Positions 3,691 through 42,883 of a stretch of 45,256 bases of DNA are shown piece by piece. Within the stretch, counting starts at the first letter, position 1. The number at the start of each line of letters is the position of its first letter. Below the pieces are notes generated by a model. It had not been told where the DNA came from. It saw only the letters and a list, made by a program, of their open reading frames with translations, and ran no database searches. A program made the position numbers and the translations under genes. This DNA is from Escherichia phage bob. The stretch lies in sequence record NC_073072.1; one strand, given 5' to 3'.

Positions 3691-4004
3691 CATTCGAAGC
3701 CATCGATTTTTCGGTTGCAATGACTAACCAGTTATTCTCCTACGACAGCAAAACCGGCGTCATTCGTCTGAAGTCCACCGGCTGCAAAATTGGCAACCTC
3801 AATACCGCCGATGGCGGAACACGTATCGAATACAACGGCAAGACGCTGTCTGGCGCACGCGTGGCGTGGATTATTGAGACGGGCAATACAATCCCTCCAG
3901 GCTTCGCAGTTGTGTGCCGCCAGCGCACTCCAGGGCACTACGGCAACCGCATAAGCAACCTTTACCTGGTAGACGTCGCACGCGACCCGAACTTTTATGC
4001 GTAA
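3687..4004 (+). CDS. HNH_3/NUMOD-like small protein, possibly degenerate homing-endonuclease-like
   Basis: TGVIRLKSTG...GTRIEYNGKTLSGARVAWIIETGNTIPPGFAVV..HYGNRISNLYLV resembles phage HNH_3 layout, but canonical His positions are not all evident. Confidence 0.4.
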   Translation: MTFEAIDFSVAMTNQLFSYDSKTGVIRLKSTGCKIGNLNTADGGTRIEYNGKTLSGARVAWIIETGNTIPPGFAVVCRQRTPGHYGNRISNLYLVDVARDPNFYA

Positions 4005-4031
4005 ATTGGTTGCATAATCATATTGGTTGCA
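4005..4031. promoter_or_regulatory. tandem pair of ATTGGTTGCA motifs
   Basis: ATTGGTTGCA at 4005-4014 and 4022-4031, intergenic; one of about 18 genome-wide copies of this 8-9-mer. Confidence 0.5.
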
Positions 4032-4040
4032 TTATCTTAA

Positions 4041-5473: not shown

Positions 5474-5940
5474 AACTACTGATTTGTGATTTGGATGGCG
5501 TCATTAACGGTTCAAGCGATGCGCGTGCCGACCTGGTGCCAGGTATAAAAACCAAATCAACATTTTGGGCGAAGTGGCACAAAGCGCATGTACGCGAAGA
5601 CCTTAACATGGATATGCTGCCGCTGTTGAGCATGTATAAAGAGCAAGGCTTCGAGATCGCGTATCTGACAAACCGGCAGCGAGAATGCTGGGAGACTACC
5701 GTCGAGCAATTGGAAGTATTCCCCGTAGGCCGGTTGTTTATGCGCCACATGCTGGACGATACCCCGCCGCCAGTGTTTAAAGCGTGCGCCGTGTTCAAAA
5801 TGGTCTGCTATGCGGACGTATCGGAACTGGTCATCATTGAAGACTGTCCGAAGAACATCGCGGCCATTCGACGGGCGTGCAGCGATCTGGTCCCGAAAAT
5901 TTATGCGATAAACGTTGCAAAATTTACTTGCAACCAATAG
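5470..5940 (+). CDS. HAD-superfamily hydrolase (putative nucleotidase/phosphatase)
   Basis: N-terminal HAD motif I LICDLDGVI; 156 aa. Confidence 0.6.
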   Translation: MKLLICDLDGVINGSSDARADLVPGIKTKSTFWAKWHKAHVREDLNMDMLPLLSMYKEQGFEIAYLTNRQRECWETTVEQLEVFPVGRLFMRHMLDDTPPPVFKACAVFKMVCYADVSELVIIEDCPKNIAAIRRACSDLVPKIYAINVAKFTCNQ

Positions 5941-5950
5941 GTTGGTTGCA
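5929..5950. promoter_or_regulatory. perfect palindrome TGCAACCAA-tagg-TTGGTTGCA
   Basis: 9 bp inverted repeat with 4 bp spacer, overlapping stop codon of 5470..5940 and upstream of gene at 6000. Confidence 0.55.
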
Positions 5951-5999
5951 TTATATTTAACTCGTCGGGGCAATACGGCCCCGCTAAAGGAAAAACATC

Positions 6000-16849: not shown

Positions 16850-19492
16850 TCATCGTTTGTAAAGTACACCACCCGGTTTGGTCGCTTTCACAATCTCAGC
16901 CTTTACCGACTCGGTGATTTGCTTTCCGAACGCCTGCGCGGTGCGAGGGTCCGGTCCGCTAACACTGGTGTCCGTCTTACCGGTCCCCATGTTAACGTTG
17001 GTCGTTACAATCATCCCACCGCCCACACCGGCAGCGGCAACGCCCAGTTTCCCGTCTGGCCCGCGCTTCAGTGGCATGATGGCCTCGGGTCCGGCCTCAC
17101 CCATCAATCCTGCGCCCTTAGCGAACGCCTGAACGCCATAACTGAAAAAGGTAGGCTGGCTTACCACTTTCCCCGAATAGGCCGCCAGATTGCCTCCTGC
17201 GTACGCTCCGCCGTCCGCATTCTTAGTGAGGCCCGAGAAGATAGCGCCGAACAATCCGTTTTTGCCGCCGTCGCCACCGAAAGCGCTAACGATCGACTTG
17301 AACGCCTGCGAGGTAGCCAGCTTGATTAACTCGCTCAGGATGGATTTGACCATATCCTTCGCGTTAATCTTGCCCGTCTCGAAAAATTCGTTCATCGTGT
17401 CCTGCATAGCGCTGAACGTGAATTTTGTGAGTGACGTCATCTGCGTATATCCGTTACCCATCTCATCCACGCTATCCTTAAGCCCGCGACTGAATCCATC
17501 CCATAGCGAGGCGTTAGCGCCGGTCTGCGCCTCCTGCACTTCCCGCAGCTTAGACACCGCCTTGTCTATATCGGTATCGTTAGCGCCAACCCTCTTCAGA
17601 CGGTCGATTAGCTGCAATTCTTCGCGCAGGTTAGCCGCTTCGCGCGTAGACAGTGCGTAGCCCGCAGCGGTGGCTTTTATCTCGGCGTTCTGATTCTTGA
17701 GGAAAGCGTCGACCTGCGCGTGGGCTTTGATCTGCTTCTCTTTCGCATCCAGCAATTTGGCTTCTTCGACGATCTGCTCGCGGACTTCCTTCACGCGTCC
17801 AAATTCGACCATCTGCTGCTTTTCGGCTGCCGTTAGTGCTCTTTCTTTGCTCGCAGCGATTAACTGCTCATTATCCGCGATCAGCTTGTTTAGGGCCGCT
17901 TGAGCGCGTTGCGTGCGGGTCTGCGTCGATGCATTGGCTTCGATCTGCTTGCCAGACTCACGAAGCTGGGCTAATTCGCTTCGCGCGACTTCCAGCATTT
18001 TCAGACCGGCATCGACTCGAATTGCCGCGGCCTTTTTCGGTGCGGGGTCTTTGTAGCGTTCGTTGACCTGCTTCACCGCCTCGGCTAGTTCTTTCTCGTT
18101 AATAACACCGCGCTTATTCAGCAAATTGAGGCGGGCGATCTCGTCGGCTCGCCGCTTCGCGTTGGTTGCGTACTCCTTCTCAAACGCGGCGCGGTCGCGG
18201 GCGGTGCGGTTTGCCTCCTCGTTCGCCTTTGCTGCTTCATCCGCGGCGCTGGCGCTGTCTCGCTCTGCACGGTTGCGCAGGGTGAGCGACGCCACTACCT
18301 TTTCCTGGGCGACCAGTTCGCTGTAAAGCATGTTAATACGCGCTTTCTGCGCTTCGGTCATCACCCCACCGGCAGCGTTTACCGCTTTCATCTCGGCATA
18401 GTACGCCGTGGTCATGCGCTGCAAGGACTCACGCGCTTTCATCTCGGACTCATTCGAGGACTGCGCGCGGCCCACATCAAGGATTGCATCCCACATAGAT
18501 TTAGCTGCCGATGTGACGACGTTCATCGAACGCTCAAGCGTACCCATGTTGGACTTAATATCGTTGGTCATAGTGGTAAACGACGCTGCGGCTGTTTTGT
18601 TAGCCAGCGCGACCGCGTCTGTCTCGCGACCCATATCCACAAGCGACTGAACCTGCTGGATCTGCGCTTCGTTTACGACGTGATACTTATCTGCCAGTGC
18701 GCGCAAACCGCCTACTGGGTCAGTTGACAGCTTCGCTACCGCCGCGACAACATCTTCGATCGGCTGGCCCGACGTCTTTGCAAAGTCATTAACCACCTTT
18801 GCTAACCCGCCGAAATCCGCTCCGGCTTTAACCCCAGCCGCCGCCAGTGACTGAATTGTGTCACGCGTCTTGCGGAATGATCCGCCCATGCGCTCGGCGT
18901 TCTCGGATAGCACCAGGATCTGGTTTGCAGTGAGGCCGGAAATGTTACCTGACAGCGCCAGCGTCTTGTTAAGCGCTGCGACCTGGTTCTCTGCGCGGGA
19001 CGTAATTGCCACCCCTACGCCTAACGTTGCCGTTAGTGCTGCAATGCCGATCCCTACCGGACCGAGGACGCCCGCAACATAACGCAGCGTGTTACCAAAT
19101 CCGCCGAACGCCCCAGTTAACTGCGGTAACTGCTGAAGCATAACGCGGTGTACTGGCATCCCCATCTCAAGCGTAACTGCGATATCCTGTAACTGGAATG
19201 CGGCGTTACGCGAGGCAAAGCCCAGGTTTTTGGTCGACATGCCTAACCTGTTGGCAAGTCGCTCCTGTTTCGTCATGCCATCGGCTGCGCGCTGCGATTC
19301 AGTCGCCAGCTTTTCCATTCCGCCCGCGGCGTCACTCGTCACCTTTTTGGATTTGCCGAGGGTGTCGTTTAATTTCTTAACCTTGTTTTCTGTGTTCTCG
19401 GATTTCTGTGCGAAGGAGTCCAGCACAGTATTCGCCGTTCTGATTTGTGCAACATCAGCCTTTAGCGTGATGCCTGCTGCCTGATCTGCCAT
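16850..19492 (-). CDS. tail tape measure protein
   Basis: 880 aa; long Ala/Gln/Lys-rich helical region, Gly-rich C-terminus; AAGGGGA RBS; downstream of chaperone G/GT. Confidence 0.85.
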   Translation of the reverse strand: MADQAAGITLKADVAQIRTANTVLDSFAQKSENTENKVKKLNDTLGKSKKVTSDAAGGMEKLATESQRAADGMTKQERLANRLGMSTKNLGFASRNAAFQLQDIAVTLEMGMPVHRVMLQQLPQLTGAFGGFGNTLRYVAGVLGPVGIGIAALTATLGVGVAITSRAENQVAALNKTLALSGNISGLTANQILVLSENAERMGGSFRKTRDTIQSLAAAGVKAGADFGGLAKVVNDFAKTSGQPIEDVVAAVAKLSTDPVGGLRALADKYHVVNEAQIQQVQSLVDMGRETDAVALANKTAAASFTTMTNDIKSNMGTLERSMNVVTSAAKSMWDAILDVGRAQSSNESEMKARESLQRMTTAYYAEMKAVNAAGGVMTEAQKARINMLYSELVAQEKVVASLTLRNRAERDSASAADEAAKANEEANRTARDRAAFEKEYATNAKRRADEIARLNLLNKRGVINEKELAEAVKQVNERYKDPAPKKAAAIRVDAGLKMLEVARSELAQLRESGKQIEANASTQTRTQRAQAALNKLIADNEQLIAASKERALTAAEKQQMVEFGRVKEVREQIVEEAKLLDAKEKQIKAHAQVDAFLKNQNAEIKATAAGYALSTREAANLREELQLIDRLKRVGANDTDIDKAVSKLREVQEAQTGANASLWDGFSRGLKDSVDEMGNGYTQMTSLTKFTFSAMQDTMNEFFETGKINAKDMVKSILSELIKLATSQAFKSIVSAFGGDGGKNGLFGAIFSGLTKNADGGAYAGGNLAAYSGKVVSQPTFFSYGVQAFAKGAGLMGEAGPEAIMPLKRGPDGKLGVAAAGVGGGMIVTTNVNMGTGKTDTSVSGPDPRTAQAFGKQITESVKAEIVKATKPGGVLYKR

Positions 19493-19555
19493 TATGCAGT
19501 CCCCTTTTTTATGCAGTTGCCGATTGATATTGTATCAGCGATTTCAAAACAAACC

Positions 19556-19745
19556 TTATTCAGTCTCAGACGAGGGGGGCCATTGACCCCCGTCTAGTCT
19601 GAAAGACTGGGGTGCTGTCCCGCTGTCCCGATCGGCTGAAAACCGCGGCAGCACTGGCGGGGACGGGGTGCTGTCCCGTTTTGTCCCGCCCCTTGTTTGT
19701 CCCGCTTTCTGTCCCGCTTACTTTATGCAATAAAACTGCATAGGT
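19556..19745. repeat. copy A of a ~180-190 bp dispersed element (G-rich hairpin plus GTCCCG iterons)
   Basis: First ~75 bp TTATTCAGTCTCAGACGAGGGGGGCCAtTGACCCCCGTCTAGTCTGAAAGACTGGGGTGCTGTCCCGCTGTCCCG near-identical to 35971-36045; both copies end TTTATGCA..TTGCATA. Confidence 0.8.
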
Positions 19746-19764
19746 ATGCACATTTACAGGGCGT

Positions 19765-19874
19765 GACAAAACGGGACGTCCCGCCTGTCCCGCTTTGAGT
19801 TTATGCAATGAAAGTGATTAGATATGCGGTTTTACAGAGGCGGGACAAAACGGGACGTCCCGCCTGTCCCGCTT
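19765..19874. repeat. two perfect 31 bp direct repeats each containing the 12 bp palindrome CGGGACGTCCCG
   Basis: GACAAAACGGGACGTCCCGCCTGTCCCGCTT at 19765-19795 and 19844-19874, inside a ~79 bp imperfect tandem unit. Confidence 0.8.
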
Positions 19875-19876
19875 CA

Positions 19877-20553
19877 TTATGCGGGGTTCTGCTGCGCCAT
19901 CTCATCAAGCGCGATTCGTTCCATTAGCTTGATATCTTTAAACGCGCGCTGCTCGTTTTCGATACCGTGCATCTTAAATAACCACTCCAGCACGCCGTAG
20001 TCGATGCCGTATGCGCCACCAAATCCGGTGCGCCATTGCGTGGAGCAATCTGTGAAGACTGCGACTACCTTCGCGTTGTCGGGCCATAGCGCAACAGGTG
20101 GACAAACATCTTCGGGGGCCGCACCCCATAAACTTGCGGCTAAATCTTCGGAGGGTGGCGGCGGGCCATAAAAGCGTCGCGCCGCCTCAATTAGTTTTTT
20201 TCACGCAATCCCATCAGTTCGAGATAGTACGACGTGTGGAACACACCGAACGCGCGTGGGTAGTTGACCACCAGGCGGCGGACGTTCTCCGAGTTAAATT
20301 CGTCTGGCAGATTCCAGCCTTCCGCGACGTGCATGATGGCCTCGACCATAACGTTAAAGCCGTCCGGGTCATTGTCGTCATATTCCGACAGCTTTCGTTC
20401 GGTGTCCTGCATGGTTTGCGAAAATTCGTCGATCGGGCGGTGGCGGACGGTAAAAGTCATCTTGCCTGGTTCGTTCTCACCTGGGCGCGGGATCTCAATC
20501 GGCAGCTTAAAGGTCGGCTTAGGGTCAAGTGTAAAGAGTGGTGCTTTAGCCAT
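19877..20553 (-). CDS. tail assembly chaperone GT-like fusion product via programmed -1 frameshift (predicted)
   Basis: Slippery A_AAA_AAC at 20194-20200 (coding strand) as last codons of G; -1 frame open ~106 codons to TAA at 19877-19879 with no start codon for its first ~70 codons. Confidence 0.5.
20191..20553 (-). CDS. tail assembly chaperone (lambda G-like)
   Basis: 120 aa acidic protein between major tail and tape measure genes; ATG 20553 with GGAGAA RBS. Confidence 0.65.
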   Translation of the reverse strand: MAKAPLFTLDPKPTFKLPIEIPRPGENEPGKMTFTVRHRPIDEFSQTMQDTERKLSEYDDNDPDGFNVMVEAIMHVAEGWNLPDEFNSENVRRLVVNYPRAFGVFHTSYYLELMGLREKN

Positions 20554-20567
20554 TGTAGTATTCTCCA

Positions 20568-20592
20568 ATAAAAAAGGGGCCGTGCTGGCCCC
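20568..20592 (-). terminator. rho-independent terminator after the major tail protein gene
   Basis: On minus strand GGGGCC-agcac-GGCCCC followed by TTTTTT. Confidence 0.55.
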
Positions 20593-25364: not shown

Positions 25365-25467
25365 GCTATCCCCCTGGGATTGTGGCAGAGCAGGCCACCC
25401 GCTCGACTTCACGCTTCTAATATTATCAGCGATAAAAATAATCGCAAAATTCGCTTGCAATCCGCGT

Positions 25468-25492
25468 ATTGGTTGCACTATATTGGTTGCAC
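25468..25492. promoter_or_regulatory. tandem pair of TATTGGTTGCA motifs in a divergent intergenic region
   Basis: Copies at 25468-25478 and 25482-25492, between scaffold gene start (25364) and plus-strand gene at 25514. Confidence 0.5.
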
Positions 25493-25513
25493 ACCAACAA
25501 CGAGGACACAAAA

Positions 25514-35758: not shown

Positions 35759-35779
35759 CGTTCAGTCCTCATGTTGGTG

Positions 35780-35821
35780 TGCAACCAATATAGCAAGGTG
35801 CCAGGGCGAATGCAACCAATA
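35780..35821. promoter_or_regulatory. pair of TGCAACCAAT motifs upstream of minus-strand gene 35758
   Basis: Copies at 35780-35790 and 35811-35821; a further TATTGGTTGCC at 35901-35911. Confidence 0.5.
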
Positions 35822-35970: not shown

Positions 35971-36158
35971 TTATTCAGTCTCAGACGAGGGGGGCCACTG
36001 ACCCCCGTCTAGTCTGAAAGACTGGGGTGCTGTCCCGCTGTCCCGCTCCTCTGGAAGCCGCGCCATCCGGGGCGGGACGGGGGTGCTGTCCCGCTTTGTC
36101 CCGCCCCTAGTCTGTCCCGCTTTTTGTCCCGTTTGGTTTATGCAGTTTTATTGCATAA
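35971..36158. repeat. copy B of the ~180-190 bp dispersed element
   Basis: Same hairpin GACGAGGGGGGCCAcTGACCCCCGTC and six GTCCCG iterons; aligns with 19556-19745. Confidence 0.8.
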
Positions 36159-36182
36159 CTATTCATTACATCCACATTACAC

Positions 36183-36302
36183 GGCAACCAACGCGACTGG
36201 ATAAAAACACTCAAAATGGCAACCAATGCGCGCAAAATTTAGTCTTTTAGCGATATGGGAATCCACATATCGGCAACCAATGCGCGCAAAATTTAATCTT
36301 TT
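36183..36302. repeat. iteron-like direct repeats GGCAACCAA(T/C)GCG(CGCAAAATTTARTCTTTTA) next to an AT-rich tract; candidate replication origin
   Basis: Three copies starting 36183, 36217, 36271; the last two are 32 bp near-identical; AT-rich 36136-36180. Confidence 0.45.
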
Positions 36303-36345: not shown

Positions 36346-38634
36346 TTATGACAATATTCGACGACCCATAGATGGCTCCGGTGTGTGGGTCTGTATAAAA
36401 ACCGAGTACGCCGCGCTCGACCATATCGTCGATTGCCTTCGTCGATGTGCCACCTTTCGCAAGCCCAGCCTGGCGGACAATTGCCGATTTACTGAATCCG
36501 GTATGGTCCGGGTTATCTTCGATGTGCCACCTTTCGCAAGCCCAGCCTGGCGGACAATTGCCGATTTACTGAATCCGGTATGGTCCGGGTTATCTTCCAT
36601 CAGTTTTTCCAGCGCTGCATAAAGCACTTTCTCTTTTTCGTTGCGCGGTCCTGCTGCGTTCTCTTCCTTAACTGCTGCCTTGCCAGCGGCCTTCGCCTGT
36701 TCGATGGCGAACGGTGCCAGGGCGACCGGTACGAGGTAAAGAGTCTCGTCGCGTGGCGTGGAGGCAATTGGCTTGACGTCCCAACCGGCAACTACATCGC
36801 CGAAGTCCGGCCCGGTGCTGGTGGACTGGTGTGCCTCGAACGCCTCGGACTTGCGGAGATCCACCTTAACTTTGCACTTGAGCAGGACGAAGCCACGCGG
36901 CGCTTGCTTGATGCCGTTACGTGACTTCTCATGATACAGGTTCAATTGTCCGGGCTGGTTGTCGTCCGGCTGTTCCAGGAAGAACGCAGAATCGACAGCA
37001 CCATGCAGCGCGCCGGACCCGCGGGGAGATCTGCTGCCGTTTGAACCTTTCGCCGGGTGGTGGATGACGCCCGCACTGCCGCCTGTATTTTCCGCAATGG
37101 CCTTCAGCGCTTTGACCACTTCGCCCATATCGCTGGCGTTGTTCTCGTCGAACGGTTTTGCATCGGCGGACCGCAGCGCAACAGTCTGGTTGAGTGAGTC
37201 GAACGCCACCAGGCCAACCGGCTCGCCGTTAGCGGTGCGGTTGATGAAGCTGATAACTTCACGCAAGCCAGATTTGCTGGTGATATCCCATCCGCGTGAT
37301 TGCAGATCGATAATGTGCAGCTTGTCCAGGTCGTGCTCATATTTGATCTGCAGTGCTTCTTTACGCTGGTTGGAGGCCTCACCACCTTCCGCATCGAAAT
37401 AGAAGCAATGAGACTGGACGACCTTCGCACCGCCGAACGGAATACCGGCAGATACTGACGCCATCTGGCCCAGCACGTAGAACGACTTGCCAATGTTCGA
37501 TTCGCCAGCCATATACCAGGTCGATTTGAAGTTGACCAGGCCTTCGATGATCGGGTCGTGCTTACTGAACAGTGCGACCGGCTCGTTGTCCAGGTCTGCA
37601 TCAGTACACACGCCGTACTCGTCGCCGTCTCCGACCGCATCAACGATATGTTCATAGCACGATTCCACTTCCTCATCGTCCAGTCCCGGAAGGATGGCGG
37701 CGATTTGCTTACGTGACATGTTGTGCGGCTCGACGTTCAGGTGGTCCGGGATCCCGATAAGACGTAGCGCCAGGTGCTGGTGTCTGTTCAGTTCCGAGCA
37801 ACACTCGTTGCCGGTGTGCATACACTTGAAACGGATCTCGCCATCCTTAACCATGATAGCGGTGGACCCTTCGCCGCTGTGCAGGTGTTCGTTCGGGCAT
37901 GGCACTTCATAACCACGACCAGACGACAGCGGTTCGAATCCCGCCTGGAAGCACCAATCCAGAATACCGTCCGCCACACCATCATCGCCCTGGGTCAGTT
38001 CGCGGCGTACTTCCTCTTTCTCGACTCCCAGCTTGTCCGCCAGGCGGAGAAGACGACGGACGCGGGCGCGCTTGCCGTAGTGGCACTTAACGACAGACTG
38101 CTGATGTGGCAGGTACATAAGGCGGTTTGTGTCTTTTGTACAGTCGTCGAAGTCCACATCTGACAGACCAAGTTGGTGTAATAGCGCATACTGGACACGG
38201 CCCAGGTCTTCAGCCGGTACAGGCTTGTCCGTGAGTACCAGGAATCGAGCGCAACGCGTGCCGCCTTTCAGCGGGTGGCGGTCGCCGGTTGTGGTGTGAA
38301 ATACGTGCTCCAGCCCCGCGTCGATGAAAGCCTTACGGCAGCGGCGTAGGGTGCGGGTGTCGGTACGGTCAATATCGAAGAACAGGATCGAGCGGTCCAC
38401 CGCACTGGTCTTGCGGCGTAAGCCGTCACTGGTATACGCTACGATGCCATCGGCCTTACGCTTGCGGCGCGCATACTCGGCTTTATCTTCCGTCTTGTTG
38501 ATATGCACCGACGATATCTCTTTCGCATCTTTGATAAATTCGAAAAATTCATCGGTCGTCATCCGGAAGTTTTCCGCCCTGGCTTTTTCGCCTTTTTTAG
38601 CGGGTCGTGTTACAGCGAATTTAATTAAGCTCAT
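36346..38634 (-). CDS. primase-helicase (AEP-type primase N-terminus, Zn-binding middle, P-loop helicase C-terminus), with an altered C-terminal tail
   Basis: 762 aa; FFDIDRTD primase-like, CPNEHLHSGE...CMHTGNEC, Walker A GESNIGKS, Walker B LVAFDSL; 3' end carries a 77 bp tandem duplication. Confidence 0.8.
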   Translation of the reverse strand: MSLIKFAVTRPAKKGEKARAENFRMTTDEFFEFIKDAKEISSVHINKTEDKAEYARRKRKADGIVAYTSDGLRRKTSAVDRSILFFDIDRTDTRTLRRCRKAFIDAGLEHVFHTTTGDRHPLKGGTRCARFLVLTDKPVPAEDLGRVQYALLHQLGLSDVDFDDCTKDTNRLMYLPHQQSVVKCHYGKRARVRRLLRLADKLGVEKEEVRRELTQGDDGVADGILDWCFQAGFEPLSSGRGYEVPCPNEHLHSGEGSTAIMVKDGEIRFKCMHTGNECCSELNRHQHLALRLIGIPDHLNVEPHNMSRKQIAAILPGLDDEEVESCYEHIVDAVGDGDEYGVCTDADLDNEPVALFSKHDPIIEGLVNFKSTWYMAGESNIGKSFYVLGQMASVSAGIPFGGAKVVQSHCFYFDAEGGEASNQRKEALQIKYEHDLDKLHIIDLQSRGWDITSKSGLREVISFINRTANGEPVGLVAFDSLNQTVALRSADAKPFDENNASDMGEVVKALKAIAENTGGSAGVIHHPAKGSNGSRSPRGSGALHGAVDSAFFLEQPDDNQPGQLNLYHEKSRNGIKQAPRGFVLLKCKVKVDLRKSEAFEAHQSTSTGPDFGDVVAGWDVKPIASTPRDETLYLVPVALAPFAIEQAKAAGKAAVKEENAAGPRNEKEKVLYAALEKLMEDNPDHTGFSKSAIVRQAGLAKGGTSKITRTIPDSVNRQLSARLGLRKVAHRRRQSTIWSSAAYSVFIQTHTPEPSMGRRILS
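36443..36596. repeat. perfect 77 bp tandem duplication inside the primase-helicase coding region
   Basis: 36443-36519 and 36520-36596 are identical; 77 is not a multiple of 3, so the second-read copy is translated in a shifted frame. Confidence 0.85.
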
Positions 38635-39377: not shown

Positions 39378-39899
39378 ATGTTTGAGCAAATCGTAAACCT
39401 GATCACTCGCGGCGTAGTAGCACTGGAAACCATCGCTAAGCATTATGAAACCGTTGGCGCTGCCGTTGGTAAACAGGAAGATAAGAAGCCGTCTAAGGCG
39501 AAAAAAGAAGTTGTCGAAGATGACGACGATGAAGCTGAAGACGAAAAACCGGCTAAATCTAAAAAAGCACCGGCGAAAGGTAAGGCTAAAAAAGAAGTCG
39601 TAGAAGATGACGACGACGATGCCGAAGACGATGCCGAAGACGAAAAACCGGCTAAGTCTAAAAAAGCGAAAGGCAAAGGTAAGAAAGATGCCGATCCGCT
39701 GGCGGAGATGCGCGACGAAATCAAACAGTATGCCGCGATTATTGCGGGTGGTGATGACGACGACGCGAACGACGAATTCGACGACCTGCTGGAATCGTTC
39801 GAGATCAAATCAATCGCCAAGCTGGAAGATGACGACGTCGAAGACTTCCACAAAGAGCTAAAAGAAATCGTCGAAACCTATTTCGAACTGGAAGATTAA
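39378..39899 (+). CDS. highly acidic low-complexity repeat protein (first gene of rightward early operon)
   Basis: ATG 39378 with GGAG RBS; repeats KKEVVEDDDDEAEDEKPAKSKKA; an in-frame upstream ATG at 39198 is a possible alternative start. Confidence 0.6.
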   Translation: MFEQIVNLITRGVVALETIAKHYETVGAAVGKQEDKKPSKAKKEVVEDDDDEAEDEKPAKSKKAPAKGKAKKEVVEDDDDDAEDDAEDEKPAKSKKAKGKGKKDADPLAEMRDEIKQYAAIIAGGDDDDANDEFDDLLESFEIKSIAKLEDDDVEDFHKELKEIVETYFELED

Positions 39900-42100: not shown

Positions 42101-42883
42101 ATGGCTAAAGTCAACCTGAAAAATGTGCGCGTATGTTTCCTGAAAATTTGGGAACGTGATACCCCTAAACAGGATGGGCAAAAACCGGCATACCGTGCCG
42201 TGATTCTTCTTGATAAAGAAGATCCGCAGGTGGACAAAGTGGAAGAGGCAGCGCGCGCAGTGCTCACCGACAAGCTGAAGTCCGAGAAGAACGCCGATAA
42301 GTGGATGGACCGCCACTACGCCCAGGATTCGAAGGAATGCGCAGTTCGCGACGGTGACGAGCGCGACGAAGTGACCGAAGAATTCGAAGGCATGTTGTAT
42401 ATCAACGCCAAATCGTTCAAACAGCCTATCATTCAAACGTCACTCGGCGAGAAGCAGACTGAACAAGGTCTGACCATCGACGGCGACGAGATTGAAGGCC
42501 AGGAGATCTACTCCGGTTGTTATTGCAACGTGTCCCTTGATATTTGGGCATGGAACAATACCAACGGCAAGGGTCTCGGGGCTGGCTTGCTGGGTCTGCG
42601 ATTCCGTGAAGACGGCGAAGCCTTCGGAGGTGGCGGGTCTTCTTGCTCCGATGAAGACCTGGACAACGACGACGAAGACGAAGCACCGCGCAAGTCCAAA
42701 AAGTCAAAACGTCGTGATGTCGATGATGTAGATGACAAGCCGCGCAAGTCCAAGAAATCCAAGCGCCGCGATGACGACGACGATGAGGAAGATGAAAAAC
42801 CTCGCAAACGTCGTAAGCCACGCGATGACGAAGATGAGGACGACGACGAAGACGAAGCGCCACGTAAACGTCGCCGCCGTTAA
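42101..42883 (+). CDS. ssDNA-binding protein, T7 gp2.5-like (DUF2815-type), with charged repeat tail
   Basis: ATG 42101 with GAGGA RBS; MAKVNLKNVRVCF N-terminus; three C-terminal repeats DEAPRKSKKSKRRD. Confidence 0.65.
   Translation: MAKVNLKNVRVCFLKIWERDTPKQDGQKPAYRAVILLDKEDPQVDKVEEAARAVLTDKLKSEKNADKWMDRHYAQDSKECAVRDGDERDEVTEEFEGMLYINAKSFKQPIIQTSLGEKQTEQGLTIDGDEIEGQEIYSGCYCNVSLDIWAWNNTNGKGLGAGLLGLRFREDGEAFGGGGSSCSDEDLDNDDEDEAPRKSKKSKRRDVDDVDDKPRKSKKSKRRDDDDDEEDEKPRKRRKPRDDEDEDDDEDEAPRKRRRR

What the first reader, a model, noticed from the sequence alone, without database searches (positions are those of the whole stretch)
19493..19876. 384 bp non-coding insert between chaperone GT and the tape measure gene, with two perfect 31 bp direct repeats and a CGGGACGTCCCG palindrome
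In lambda-like tail operons the tape measure gene normally follows G/GT directly. Here 384 bp of non-coding DNA separates them, holding copy A of the dispersed element plus a ~79 bp imperfect tandem unit whose core GACAAAACGGGACGTCCCGCCTGTCCCGCTT is repeated perfectly (19765-19795, 19844-19874). Each core contains the 12 bp perfect palindrome CGGGACGTCCCG. This may tune chaperone-to-tape-measure expression, act as a protein-binding array, or encode a structured RNA.
Basis: seen in the sequence. Interest (0 to 1): 0.65.

Follow-up and report, generated by a model that had tools for sequence, protein, structure and literature searches.

The report
Second replication-origin-like module inside tail operon
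The 384 bp gap between the tail chaperone and tape measure genes of this E. coli phage is an extra copy of the repeat-and-hairpin module that lies just after the phage's primase-helicase gene, so it is most likely a second replication origin or initiator-binding site in an unusual place.

Summary
The window is a Dhillonvirus (HK578-like coliphage). The spacer 19493-19876 is non-coding. It holds 14 GGGAC cores (consensus GCGGGACA) in both orientations, three ~40 bp AT-rich patches and a ~50 nt imperfect hairpin.

The half nearest the tape measure gene is an 85% copy of a module at 35971-36165, directly 3' of the primase-helicase gene.

The same module follows that gene in four Guernseyvirinae-like lineages, once per genome in the two complete genomes checked. 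Each lineage has its own repeat: CGGACAA, TCCGACA, GGGGGAGA or ACTCGCAA. Repeat type tracks the helicase's C-terminal ~95 residues, which model as a winged helix. Pairs 96-98% identical over residues 1-660 but with different repeats are only 45-48% identical in that tail. A nearby Cro-like HTH protein is 95-99% identical across repeat types.

Best reading: iterons, AT-rich DNA and a priming or loading hairpin. This is an origin of the SaPI Rep/ori, P4 alpha/ori-crr or RSF1010 oriV kind. It was duplicated into the tail operon with two extra 79 bp units and is kept in about 150 sequenced relatives.

No binding or replication experiment exists. I found no known RNA family, good terminator or conserved ORF.

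The parts
19493..19876 (-). Whole non-coding spacer between the GT stop and the tape measure ATG (module copy A plus two extra 79 bp units)
19839..19874 (-). Iteron cluster 1 of the tandem part: GCGGGACA, then the head-to-head pair CGGGAC|GTCCCG, then an inverted GTCCCGC. It can extrude as a hairpin or cruciform.
   Evidence: cores kept in 12-14 of 15 relatives
19797..19838 (-). AT-rich patch 1 (GC 0.33), a degenerate copy of the palindrome segment
   Evidence: (D3)
19760..19795 (-). Iteron cluster 2 of the tandem part (36 nt, one mismatch to cluster 1)
19720..19759 (-). AT-rich patch 2 (GC 0.33) holding the palindrome TTATGCA-N7-TGCATA (19723-19742). This is the start of the segment shared with copy B.
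   Evidence: (I20)
19657..19719 (-). Main iteron block: four direct GCGGGACA-type repeats spaced 10-16 bp, then one inverted GTCCC
   Evidence: direct-repeat cores kept in 14-15 of 15 relatives and the inverted GTCCC in 11 of 15, spacers variable
19631..19656 (-). Spacer between iteron blocks, CAGTGCTGCCGCGGTTTTCAGCCGAT. It is largely invariant in copy A (the CAGTGCTGCCGC core is identical in all 14), and a related GCCGC..GGTTT..GCCGA is present in phiEap-2 and W5 despite their different iterons.
19615..19630 (-). Pair of adjacent iterons (CGGGACAGCGGGACA) flanking the hairpin
19561..19609. Long imperfect hairpin (about 18 bp with two bulges). In the 15 aligned relatives both arms are identical in every sequence except one position (14 of 15) at the base of the loop, and the loop is variable. 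Hairpins of different sequence occupy the same place in four other lineages.
19493..19560 (-). AT-rich leader (GC 0.33-0.45) with an invariant extended -10-like TGATACAAT (19537-19529), a CGGCAAC motif and the ribosome-binding site AAGGGGA before the tape measure ATG
   Evidence: the promoter role is inferred, not detected by the two-hexamer scan
35971..36165 (-). Module copy B (85% identical to 19556-19750). Its upstream end lies ~180 bp 3' of the primase-helicase stop codon, which is the conserved position for this module across lineages.
36346..38634 (-). Primase-helicase gene (AAA_25/RepA-like core at residues 357-531; C-terminal winged helix). In this window its last ~50 codons are frameshifted by an exact 77 bp duplication.
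19877..20568 (-). Tail assembly chaperone G and its -1 frameshift product GT
16850..19492 (-). Tape measure protein gene

Best explanation
The spacer is a second, enlarged copy of the cis-acting replication module of this phage. The module consists of short repeats (iterons, GCGGGACA) in direct and head-to-head orientation, interleaved AT-rich DNA, a conserved spacer motif and a ~50 nt hairpin. The proposed mechanism is as follows. The C-terminal winged-helix domain of the phage's own primase-helicase binds the iterons. Oligomerisation on the array melts the adjacent AT-rich DNA and lets the RepA-like helicase load itself. The extruded hairpin and the following CGGCAAC region serve as the loading or priming site. 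Copy B, directly 3' of the primase-helicase gene, is the ancestral origin. Copy A was duplicated into the GT-tape measure junction at or before the radiation of the sequenced Dhillonviruses and gained two more 79 bp [iteron cluster + AT-rich] units. It acts either as a second origin or as a P4-crr-like cis enhancer. The segment next to the tape measure gene probably carries a promoter that restarts tail-gene transcription behind the bound array. What is shown: the anatomy, the conservation pattern, the position of the module next to the gene in five lineages, the co-variation of iteron type with the C-terminal domain only, the predicted winged-helix fold, and selection on the hairpin structure. 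What is inferred: binding itself, origin activity, the role of the hairpin, and the promoter.
Against: No experiment shows binding or origin activity in any of these phages. Co-variation of the C-terminal domain and the iterons could partly reflect physical linkage, since they lie within ~400 bp of each other. Copy A lies 16.4 kb from the initiator gene, inside a late operon, where an origin is not expected. The two complete Guernseyvirinae genomes checked manage with one copy. Copies A and B are hardly more alike within a genome than between genomes (77.6% versus 75.8%). So nothing beyond the shared motifs ties them together functionally. The N-terminal primase assignment rests on PHROG annotation only. 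P4 alpha's solved origin-binding domain was not among the top fold hits.
Confidence: 0.6

Rival explanations
1. The spacer is a transcriptional control region for the tape measure and distal tail genes. The repeat array would be an upstream activator or roadblock site, bound by the primase-helicase or another protein. It would set the ratio of chaperone to tape measure, or time distal tail expression, with no role in replication.
For: The module has the same orientation as transcription at both sites. In other lineages it lies at the boundary between the replication gene and the downstream late-type genes. An invariant TGATACAAT lies ~37 nt before the tape measure ATG. Ioannina and L014 have an intrinsic terminator right after GT.
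Against: The promoter-like element lies outside the part shared with copy B. In Guernseyvirinae-like loci the sigma-70-like promoter with its own operator motif lies after the module, not in it. Arrays of 10 or more sites with a conserved hairpin, co-varying with a helicase domain, are typical of origins rather than of activator sites. No two-hexamer promoter or good terminator was found in the array.
Confidence: 0.15
2. The element acts as RNA within the late transcript. It could be a nut/put-like antitermination signal, or an array of GGA motifs that titrates an RNA-binding protein such as CsrA.
For: There are two copies per genome, both in the sense orientation. Small and large stem-loops are conserved in shape across lineages. 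All iteron types contain GGA. In some relatives a terminator lies just upstream.
Against: No Rfam family matches, even at E<=1. Iterons occur on both strands and as perfect DNA palindromes. The antisense strand folds as well or better (for example -28.7 versus -21.0 kcal/mol in L047). Specificity tracks a winged-helix domain of a helicase. The hairpin arms are sequence-invariant within the genus, which is unlike a purely structural RNA.
Confidence: 0.07
3. Copy A is a passively retained duplication or a small selfish insertion with no present function.
For: The two complete Guernseyvirinae genomes checked lack it at this junction. The 79 bp tandem and the flipped palindrome loop show that the region is prone to slippage.
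Against: At least 148 GenBank Dhillonviruses keep it at 80-100% identity. Cores and hairpin are conserved well above the intervening bases. The copy A inter-iteron spacer is more conserved than that of copy B. A virulent 44 kb headful-packaging phage is unlikely to carry 384 useless bases across a whole genus.
Confidence: 0.08
4. The arrays are packaging signals (pac-type sites) bound by the small terminase.
For: Repeat arrays are known in some pac and cosB sites, and the genomes are circularly permuted (note in the W5_chr3 record).
Against: Copy B lies about 4 kb from the small terminase gene and copy A about 12 kb from it, not within or beside it. The module is always tied to the primase-helicase gene, and its specificity tracks that protein's tail.
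Confidence: 0.03

Closest known systems
SaPI replication module (Rep or Pri-Rep self-loading helicase plus ori) of Staphylococcus aureus pathogenicity islands
   Same: The initiator-helicase has a C-terminal winged helix that reads short iterons. There are 6-12 iterons immediately 3' of the gene, AT-rich DNA between iteron sets of opposite orientation, lineage-specific cognate pairs, and in SaPI5 a fused primase (PMC9371898). Copy B matches this layout point for point.
   Different: The helicase class differs: SF3/SF6 in SaPIs, RepA-like AAA_25 here. SaPI oris have no reported conserved long hairpin and no second copy elsewhere in the element. There is no detectable sequence homology.
Satellite phage P4 alpha protein with ori and crr
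   Same: A single polypeptide combines primase, helicase and a C-terminal winged-helix origin binder. The same octamer iterons occur in two separated clusters, ori and the cis replication region crr, and crr contains a direct duplication. The winged helix binding origin repeats is summarised in PMC4234260. The ori/crr details are from my own knowledge of Flensburg & Calendar 1987 and Ziegelin et al. 1993-95.
   Different: P4 alpha has a Toprim primase and an SF3 helicase. P4's clusters are ~4.5 kb apart in the replication region, not inside a tail operon. Whether both sites are required in cis is untested here.
RSF1010 (IncQ) oriV with RepC, RepA and RepB'
   Same: Iterons, then GC-rich and AT-rich segments, then hairpin single-strand initiation sites. 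The helicase is of the RepA family, which is the family the AAA_25 hit points to, and there is a weak direct match to RepA 1g8y. The mechanism is summarised in PMC4234260.
   Different: Three separate proteins in RSF1010 versus one fused protein here. RSF1010 has two opposed ssi hairpins versus one long hairpin per module here. The iterons are 20 bp in RSF1010 and 8 bp here.
pRN1 ORF904 and Bordetella phage BIP-1 origin stem-loop
   Same: The origin lies 3' of a primase-helicase-winged-helix gene and contains a large stem-loop whose integrity is required (PMC4234260).
   Different: pRN1 has no iterons and an SF3 helicase. The stem-loop is ~100 nt there and ~50 nt here.

Membership tests
Iteron-type replication origin served by a self-loading initiator-helicase (SaPI Rep/ori and P4 alpha/ori kind) | Cluster of short repeats (iterons) in non-coding DNA, far above chance | tested here: met
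   15 GCGGGACA against 2.2 expected, with 12 in the two modules. 14 GGGAC cores in 19615-19876.
Iteron-type replication origin served by a self-loading initiator-helicase (SaPI Rep/ori and P4 alpha/ori kind) | AT-rich, easily melted DNA next to or between iteron sets, with iterons in opposite orientations | tested here: met
   Three patches of GC 0.33 alternate with iteron blocks of GC 0.62-0.72. Ten cores point one way and four the other.
Iteron-type replication origin served by a self-loading initiator-helicase (SaPI Rep/ori and P4 alpha/ori kind) | Location directly beside (3' of) the initiator gene | tested here: not met
   Met for copy B, which begins ~180 bp after the stop codon, and for the modules of four other lineages. 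Not met for the finding itself, copy A, which is 16.4 kb away in the tail operon.
Iteron-type replication origin served by a self-loading initiator-helicase (SaPI Rep/ori and P4 alpha/ori kind) | Initiator carries a sequence-specific DNA-binding domain | tested here: met
Iteron-type replication origin served by a self-loading initiator-helicase (SaPI Rep/ori and P4 alpha/ori kind) | Cognate specificity: the DNA-binding domain and the iteron sequence change together | tested here: met
   Five iteron types pair with five C-terminal domain types. Pairs 96-98% identical over residues 1-660 are 45-48% identical in the tail when their iterons differ. The neighbouring HTH protein does not co-vary.
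Iteron-type replication origin served by a self-loading initiator-helicase (SaPI Rep/ori and P4 alpha/ori kind) | Initiator binds the repeats, and the region supports initiation of DNA synthesis | not testable with these tools
   Needs gel-shift or footprinting assays, marker-frequency analysis or a plasmid ori assay.
P4-type two-site arrangement (ori plus crr) | Two separated clusters of the same iteron in one genome, one containing a direct duplication | tested here: met
   Modules at 19556-19876 and 35971-36165, with a 79 bp tandem in the first. Two exact hairpin copies in 13 of 16 IMG/VR Dhillonvirus contigs.
P4-type two-site arrangement (ori plus crr) | Both sites required in cis for replication | not testable with these tools
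   Needs deletion genetics.
P4-type two-site arrangement (ori plus crr) | Initiator homologous to P4 alpha (Toprim primase plus SF3 helicase) | tested here: not met
   Pfam finds only AAA_25 (RepA-like). There is no Toprim or D5/SF3 hit. The PDB sequence search finds only a weak RepA match.
RSF1010 oriV type (iterons plus ssi hairpins, RepA helicase) | RepA-family helicase | tested here: met
   PF13481 AAA_25 at 1.6e-19.
RSF1010 oriV type (iterons plus ssi hairpins, RepA helicase) | Conserved hairpin next to the iterons that acts as a single-strand priming site | tested here: inconclusive
   The hairpin is present and under structural selection in all lineages. Priming at the hairpin cannot be tested here. 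There is one hairpin rather than two opposed ones.
Intrinsic (rho-independent) terminator | GC-rich stem-loop followed by a T run on the transcribed strand | tested here: not met
   None on the coding strand. Three weak antisense candidates against 1.4 +/- 1.3 in shuffles. The long hairpin is followed by AATAAGG.
Known structured RNA families (Rfam 15) | Covariance-model match at or near the gathering score | tested here: not met
   No hit at gathering score. Only mir-4433 at 22 bits against a gathering score of 77 when searched at E<=1.

The most novel reading that the evidence does not exclude
The tail-operon copy is not just a spare origin. It would be a replication-coupled switch. Early in infection the primase-helicase bound to the enlarged array blocks or insulates transcription between GT and the tape measure gene. 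Origin firing, or titration of the protein onto replicated copies, then releases expression of the distal tail genes from the invariant extended -10 promoter. Tail assembly would thereby be tied to genome copy number. A related possibility is a P4-crr-like obligatory cis partner that loops to the origin 16.4 kb away.
Probability: 0.12. Interest if true: 0.8.

Novelty: new variant of a known kind. Interest (0 to 1): 0.6.

Why it matters
No paper in the searchable library describes an origin for Dhillonvirus or for its Guernseyvirinae relatives. This analysis gives a concrete, testable origin candidate and a cognate initiator domain for about 150 sequenced coliphages and several Salmonella and Enterobacter phage lineages. 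It also provides five natural specificity variants, which suit domain-swap experiments. It explains a conserved oddity of the genus, a tail operon broken by 384 non-coding bases. It raises the question of why a virulent siphovirus keeps a second initiator-binding module between its tail chaperone and its tape measure gene. In practice, the modules are sites to avoid or exploit when engineering these phages. They also make annotators call spurious small ORFs: several records annotate hypothetical proteins across the spacer.

Tried and rejected
- Rfam at gathering score and at E<=1 gave nothing usable.
- The sigma-70 two-hexamer and terminator scans of both modules found no convincing site in the arrays.
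- Coding potential of the spacer was rejected: frames and lengths are not conserved.
- The Cro-like HTH protein upstream of the helicase was rejected as the iteron binder. It is 95-99% identical across three iteron types, although only 37% identical between phiEap-2 and W5.
- The first gene downstream of the module was rejected as the binder. It differs between L042 and L057, which share iterons.
- A sequence search of the helicase against PDB chains gave only a marginal RepA hit.
- The wild-type C-terminal sequence could not be submitted directly for structure prediction. This was solved through a protein search and an alignment of fragments.
- The cross-lineage RNAalifold run on a MAFFT alignment was uninformative because the alignment is not structure-aware. 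Per-lineage folds and a within-lineage alignment were used instead.
- A 14-mer scan of IMG/VR, meant to find copy A in the divergent contig 3300045988_050407, returned only chance hits. Whether that 68%-identity relative has copy A remains open; it has a single exact hairpin match.
- The lineage L043-46/48/51 has terminators and reverse-strand genes after the helicase gene, and no module within 1.5 kb.
- Concerted evolution of copies A and B was looked for and is not evident.
- DnaA-box and IHF-like matches seen by eye in the AT-rich patches were too weak to claim.

Full report
**What is there**

The window is a Dhillonvirus (HK578-like siphovirus of E. coli). The stretch 19300-20100 is 100% identical to Escherichia phage mckay. 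148 GenBank phage records cover at least 80% of it at 80-100% identity.

All genes around the finding are on the minus strand.
- Chaperone G is 20194-20568 (Phage_TAC_4).
- Its -1 frameshift extension T is 19880-20194 (DUF1799). It is reached at A_AAA_AAC and stops at 19877-19879.
- The tape measure gene is 16850-19492.

So the 384 bp at 19493-19876 really do separate GT from the tape measure gene.
- the two perfect 31-mers;
- the two CGGGACGTCCCG palindromes;
- the 79 bp tandem (2.1 copies, 85% matches);
- a 195 nt, 85% identical second copy at 35971-36165.

The spacer is non-coding. In 15 relatives the open stretches change frame, place and length, and the indels are not multiples of three.

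**Anatomy, read 5' to 3' on the coding strand**

1. Two 79 bp units come first. Each is a 36 nt cluster of GGGAC cores (one direct, one head-to-head pair, one inverted) followed by a ~40 bp AT-rich patch.
2. An AT-rich palindrome follows: TTATGCA-N7-TGCATA.
3. Next come four direct GCGGGACA-type repeats spaced 10-16 bp, plus one inverted core.
4. A conserved 26 nt spacer follows (..GCTGCCGCGGTTTTCAGCCGAT).
5. Two adjacent repeats follow.
6. A ~50 nt imperfect hairpin occupies 19561-19609.
7. A 68 nt AT-rich leader ends the spacer. It holds TGATACAAT, CGGCAAC and the ribosome-binding site.

GC content alternates between 0.62-0.72 in the repeat blocks and 0.33 in the three AT-rich patches. GCGGGACA occurs 15 times in the window against 2.2 expected, and 12 of these fall in the two modules. 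As single-stranded DNA the spacer folds with a z-score of -5.25.

**Conservation pattern**

Across 15 Dhillonvirus spacers the GGGAC cores and the hairpin arms are almost invariant. The bases between the cores and the hairpin loop vary freely. This is the footprint of sequence-specific recognition sites plus a structure. It is not the footprint of a coding region or of neutral DNA.

**The second copy gives the context**

Copy B begins ~180 bp after the stop codon of the 754-residue primase-helicase, annotated as replicative helicase/primase.

I fetched relatives of that protein from GenBank and IMG/VR. The same ordered module lies directly 3' of the gene in four further lineages, mostly Guernseyvirinae-like:
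- Enterobacter phage phiEap-2 and its relatives, with iteron CGGACAA;
- Salmonella phage W5_chr3 and its relatives, with GGGGGAGA;
- a group with TCCGACA;
- a group with ACTCGCAA.

The AT-rich palindrome segment, the GCCGC..GGTTT..GCCGA spacer and a CACGGCARCA motif after the hairpin are recognisable across lineages. The repeats and the hairpin sequence differ.

The two complete Guernseyvirinae genomes have one module each, and their tape measure gene overlaps the T gene. Copy A is therefore an addition found in the Dhillonviruses examined. It was not tested in the other lineages.

**Which protein reads the repeats?**

Repeat type tracks the last ~100 residues of the primase-helicase and nothing else nearby.

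| Pair | Identity, residues 1-660 | Identity, C-terminal tail | Repeat |
|---|---|---|---|
| L042/L057 vs L049 | 96% | 45-46% | different |
| L052/L053 vs L055 | 97-98% | 48% | different |
| L047 vs L058 | 78% | 82% | same |

At the DNA level, identity drops over the last ~330 nt of the gene. It recovers to ~93% over the palindrome segment, drops again over the repeats and hairpin, and recovers after the hairpin. So two separate patches change together. This is not one swapped block.

The 73-residue Cro-like HTH protein encoded upstream is 95-99% identical among phages with three different repeat types. The first downstream gene differs between phages with the same repeats. Both are therefore poor candidates for the specific binder.

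**The hairpin**

Every lineage has a long imperfect hairpin at the same place, with folding energies of -21 to -38 kcal/mol, built from different sequences. Within the ACTCGCAA lineage, 4 of 28 pairs show compensatory double changes and none is broken.

The antisense strand folds as well or better than the sense strand. In the phiEap-2 and TCCGACA lineages the loop carries an inverted repeat unit.

**Interpretation**

The best-supported explanation is an iteron-type replication origin module. Its repeats would be read by the winged-helix tail of a self-loading primase-helicase. The AT-rich DNA would be melted, and the hairpin would serve as the loading or priming site.

The layout of copy B matches the experimentally characterised SaPI Rep/ori system closely. 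There, 6-12 iterons lie immediately 3' of rep, a C-terminal winged helix reads them, and opposed iterons flank an AT-rich centre (PMC9371898). It also matches the origin stem-loop 3' of the pRN1 and BIP-1 primase-helicase-winged-helix genes (PMC4234260). The combination of iterons, a hairpin and a RepA-type helicase recalls RSF1010 oriV (summarised in PMC4234260).

Two separated clusters of one iteron, one of them internally duplicated, recall P4 ori and crr. That comparison rests on my own knowledge of the P4 literature.

The finding itself, copy A, contains every part of the module plus two extra [iteron cluster + AT-rich] units. I therefore read it as a second origin or a crr-like cis partner.

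The segment next to the tape measure gene is not shared with copy B. It carries an invariant extended -10-like element. Two relatives have an intrinsic terminator right after GT. Transcription of the distal tail genes therefore probably restarts behind the array. This is an inference.

**Limits**

- Binding, origin firing, priming at the hairpin and the promoter are all untested.
- Linkage could contribute to the domain-repeat co-variation.
- Copies A and B show no clear concerted evolution (77.6% within genomes versus 75.8% between genomes).
- I could not establish whether the most divergent Dhillon-like contig (68% helicase identity) has copy A.

**Rivals**

- A purely transcriptional element remains possible, mainly for the leader segment.
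- An RNA element is disfavoured. There is no Rfam hit. The repeats lie on both strands and form DNA palindromes. The antisense strand folds as well or better. Specificity tracks a DNA-binding fold.
- A useless remnant is disfavoured by genus-wide conservation focused on the cores.
- A packaging site is disfavoured because the module is always tied to the helicase gene and lies kilobases from the terminase genes.

**Novelty**

Searches of the paper library found no description of an origin or of these repeats in Dhillonvirus or Guernseyvirinae. The mechanism class is known. The variant is new in three respects: a RepA-like fused primase-helicase with a winged-helix tail, five natural specificity types, and above all a second, enlarged copy between GT and the tape measure gene.

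Noticed in passing
window 36439-36592 (within the primase-helicase gene 36346-38634, minus strand): An exact 77 bp tandem duplication frameshifts the last ~50 codons, destroying the recognition helix and wing of the predicted iteron-binding winged helix. None of 153 related GenBank records has it. 77 is the default largest SPAdes k-mer, so an untrimmed circular-contig overlap is the likely cause. If the duplication is real, the phage should be replication-defective under my model.
   Followed up: yes
window 4004-4038, 5940-5957, 25467-25499, 35772-35793, about 35810, and three copies in 36190-36290: A second dispersed motif, ATTGGTTGCA, is partly palindromic (TGTTGGTGTGCAACCAATATAG occurs as a perfect 22 nt inverted pair at 25478-25499 and 35772-35793). 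The Guernseyvirinae equivalent, TGTTGGCTG...GCCAACA, brackets a sigma-70-like promoter (TTGCAA-17-TAATAT) just after the module. It is probably the operator of the small Cro-like HTH protein, which stays 95-99% identical across iteron types.
   Followed up: partly
window 19723-19742 versus 36139-36158; copy B of L024-L036: The 7 nt spacer of the palindrome TTATGCA-N7-TGCATAA is inverted (ATAAAAC versus GTTTTAT) between copies A and B of this genome, and among copy B of different phages. This is a loop-inversion polymorphism typical of hairpin-forming quasi-palindromes.
   Followed up: partly
L018 (phage Ioannina) 11424-11446; L014: An intrinsic terminator, GGCCGGgtaattCCGGCCTTTTT, lies immediately after the T stop codon and before the first iteron in two divergent Dhillonviruses. 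It is absent from the window.
   Followed up: no
L043-L046, L048, L051 (IMG/VR contigs, helicase 43-45% identical): This lineage has a related primase-helicase with a winged-helix tail, but terminators and reverse-strand genes follow the gene and no iteron module lies within 1.5 kb. Its origin, if of the same kind, must be elsewhere.
   Followed up: partly
window 39500-39700 and 42640-42870: There are coding-level repeats rich in GAAGACGA/GATGACGA (acidic D/E runs followed by K-rich stretches) in two genes of the plus-strand early region. They share 60-78% identical 45 nt units.
   Followed up: no
GenBank MG065648.1: A record named 'Campylobacter phage A144' (35 kb, unannotated) is 97% identical to this coliphage region. 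It is probably a contaminant or a mislabelled Dhillonvirus.
   Followed up: no
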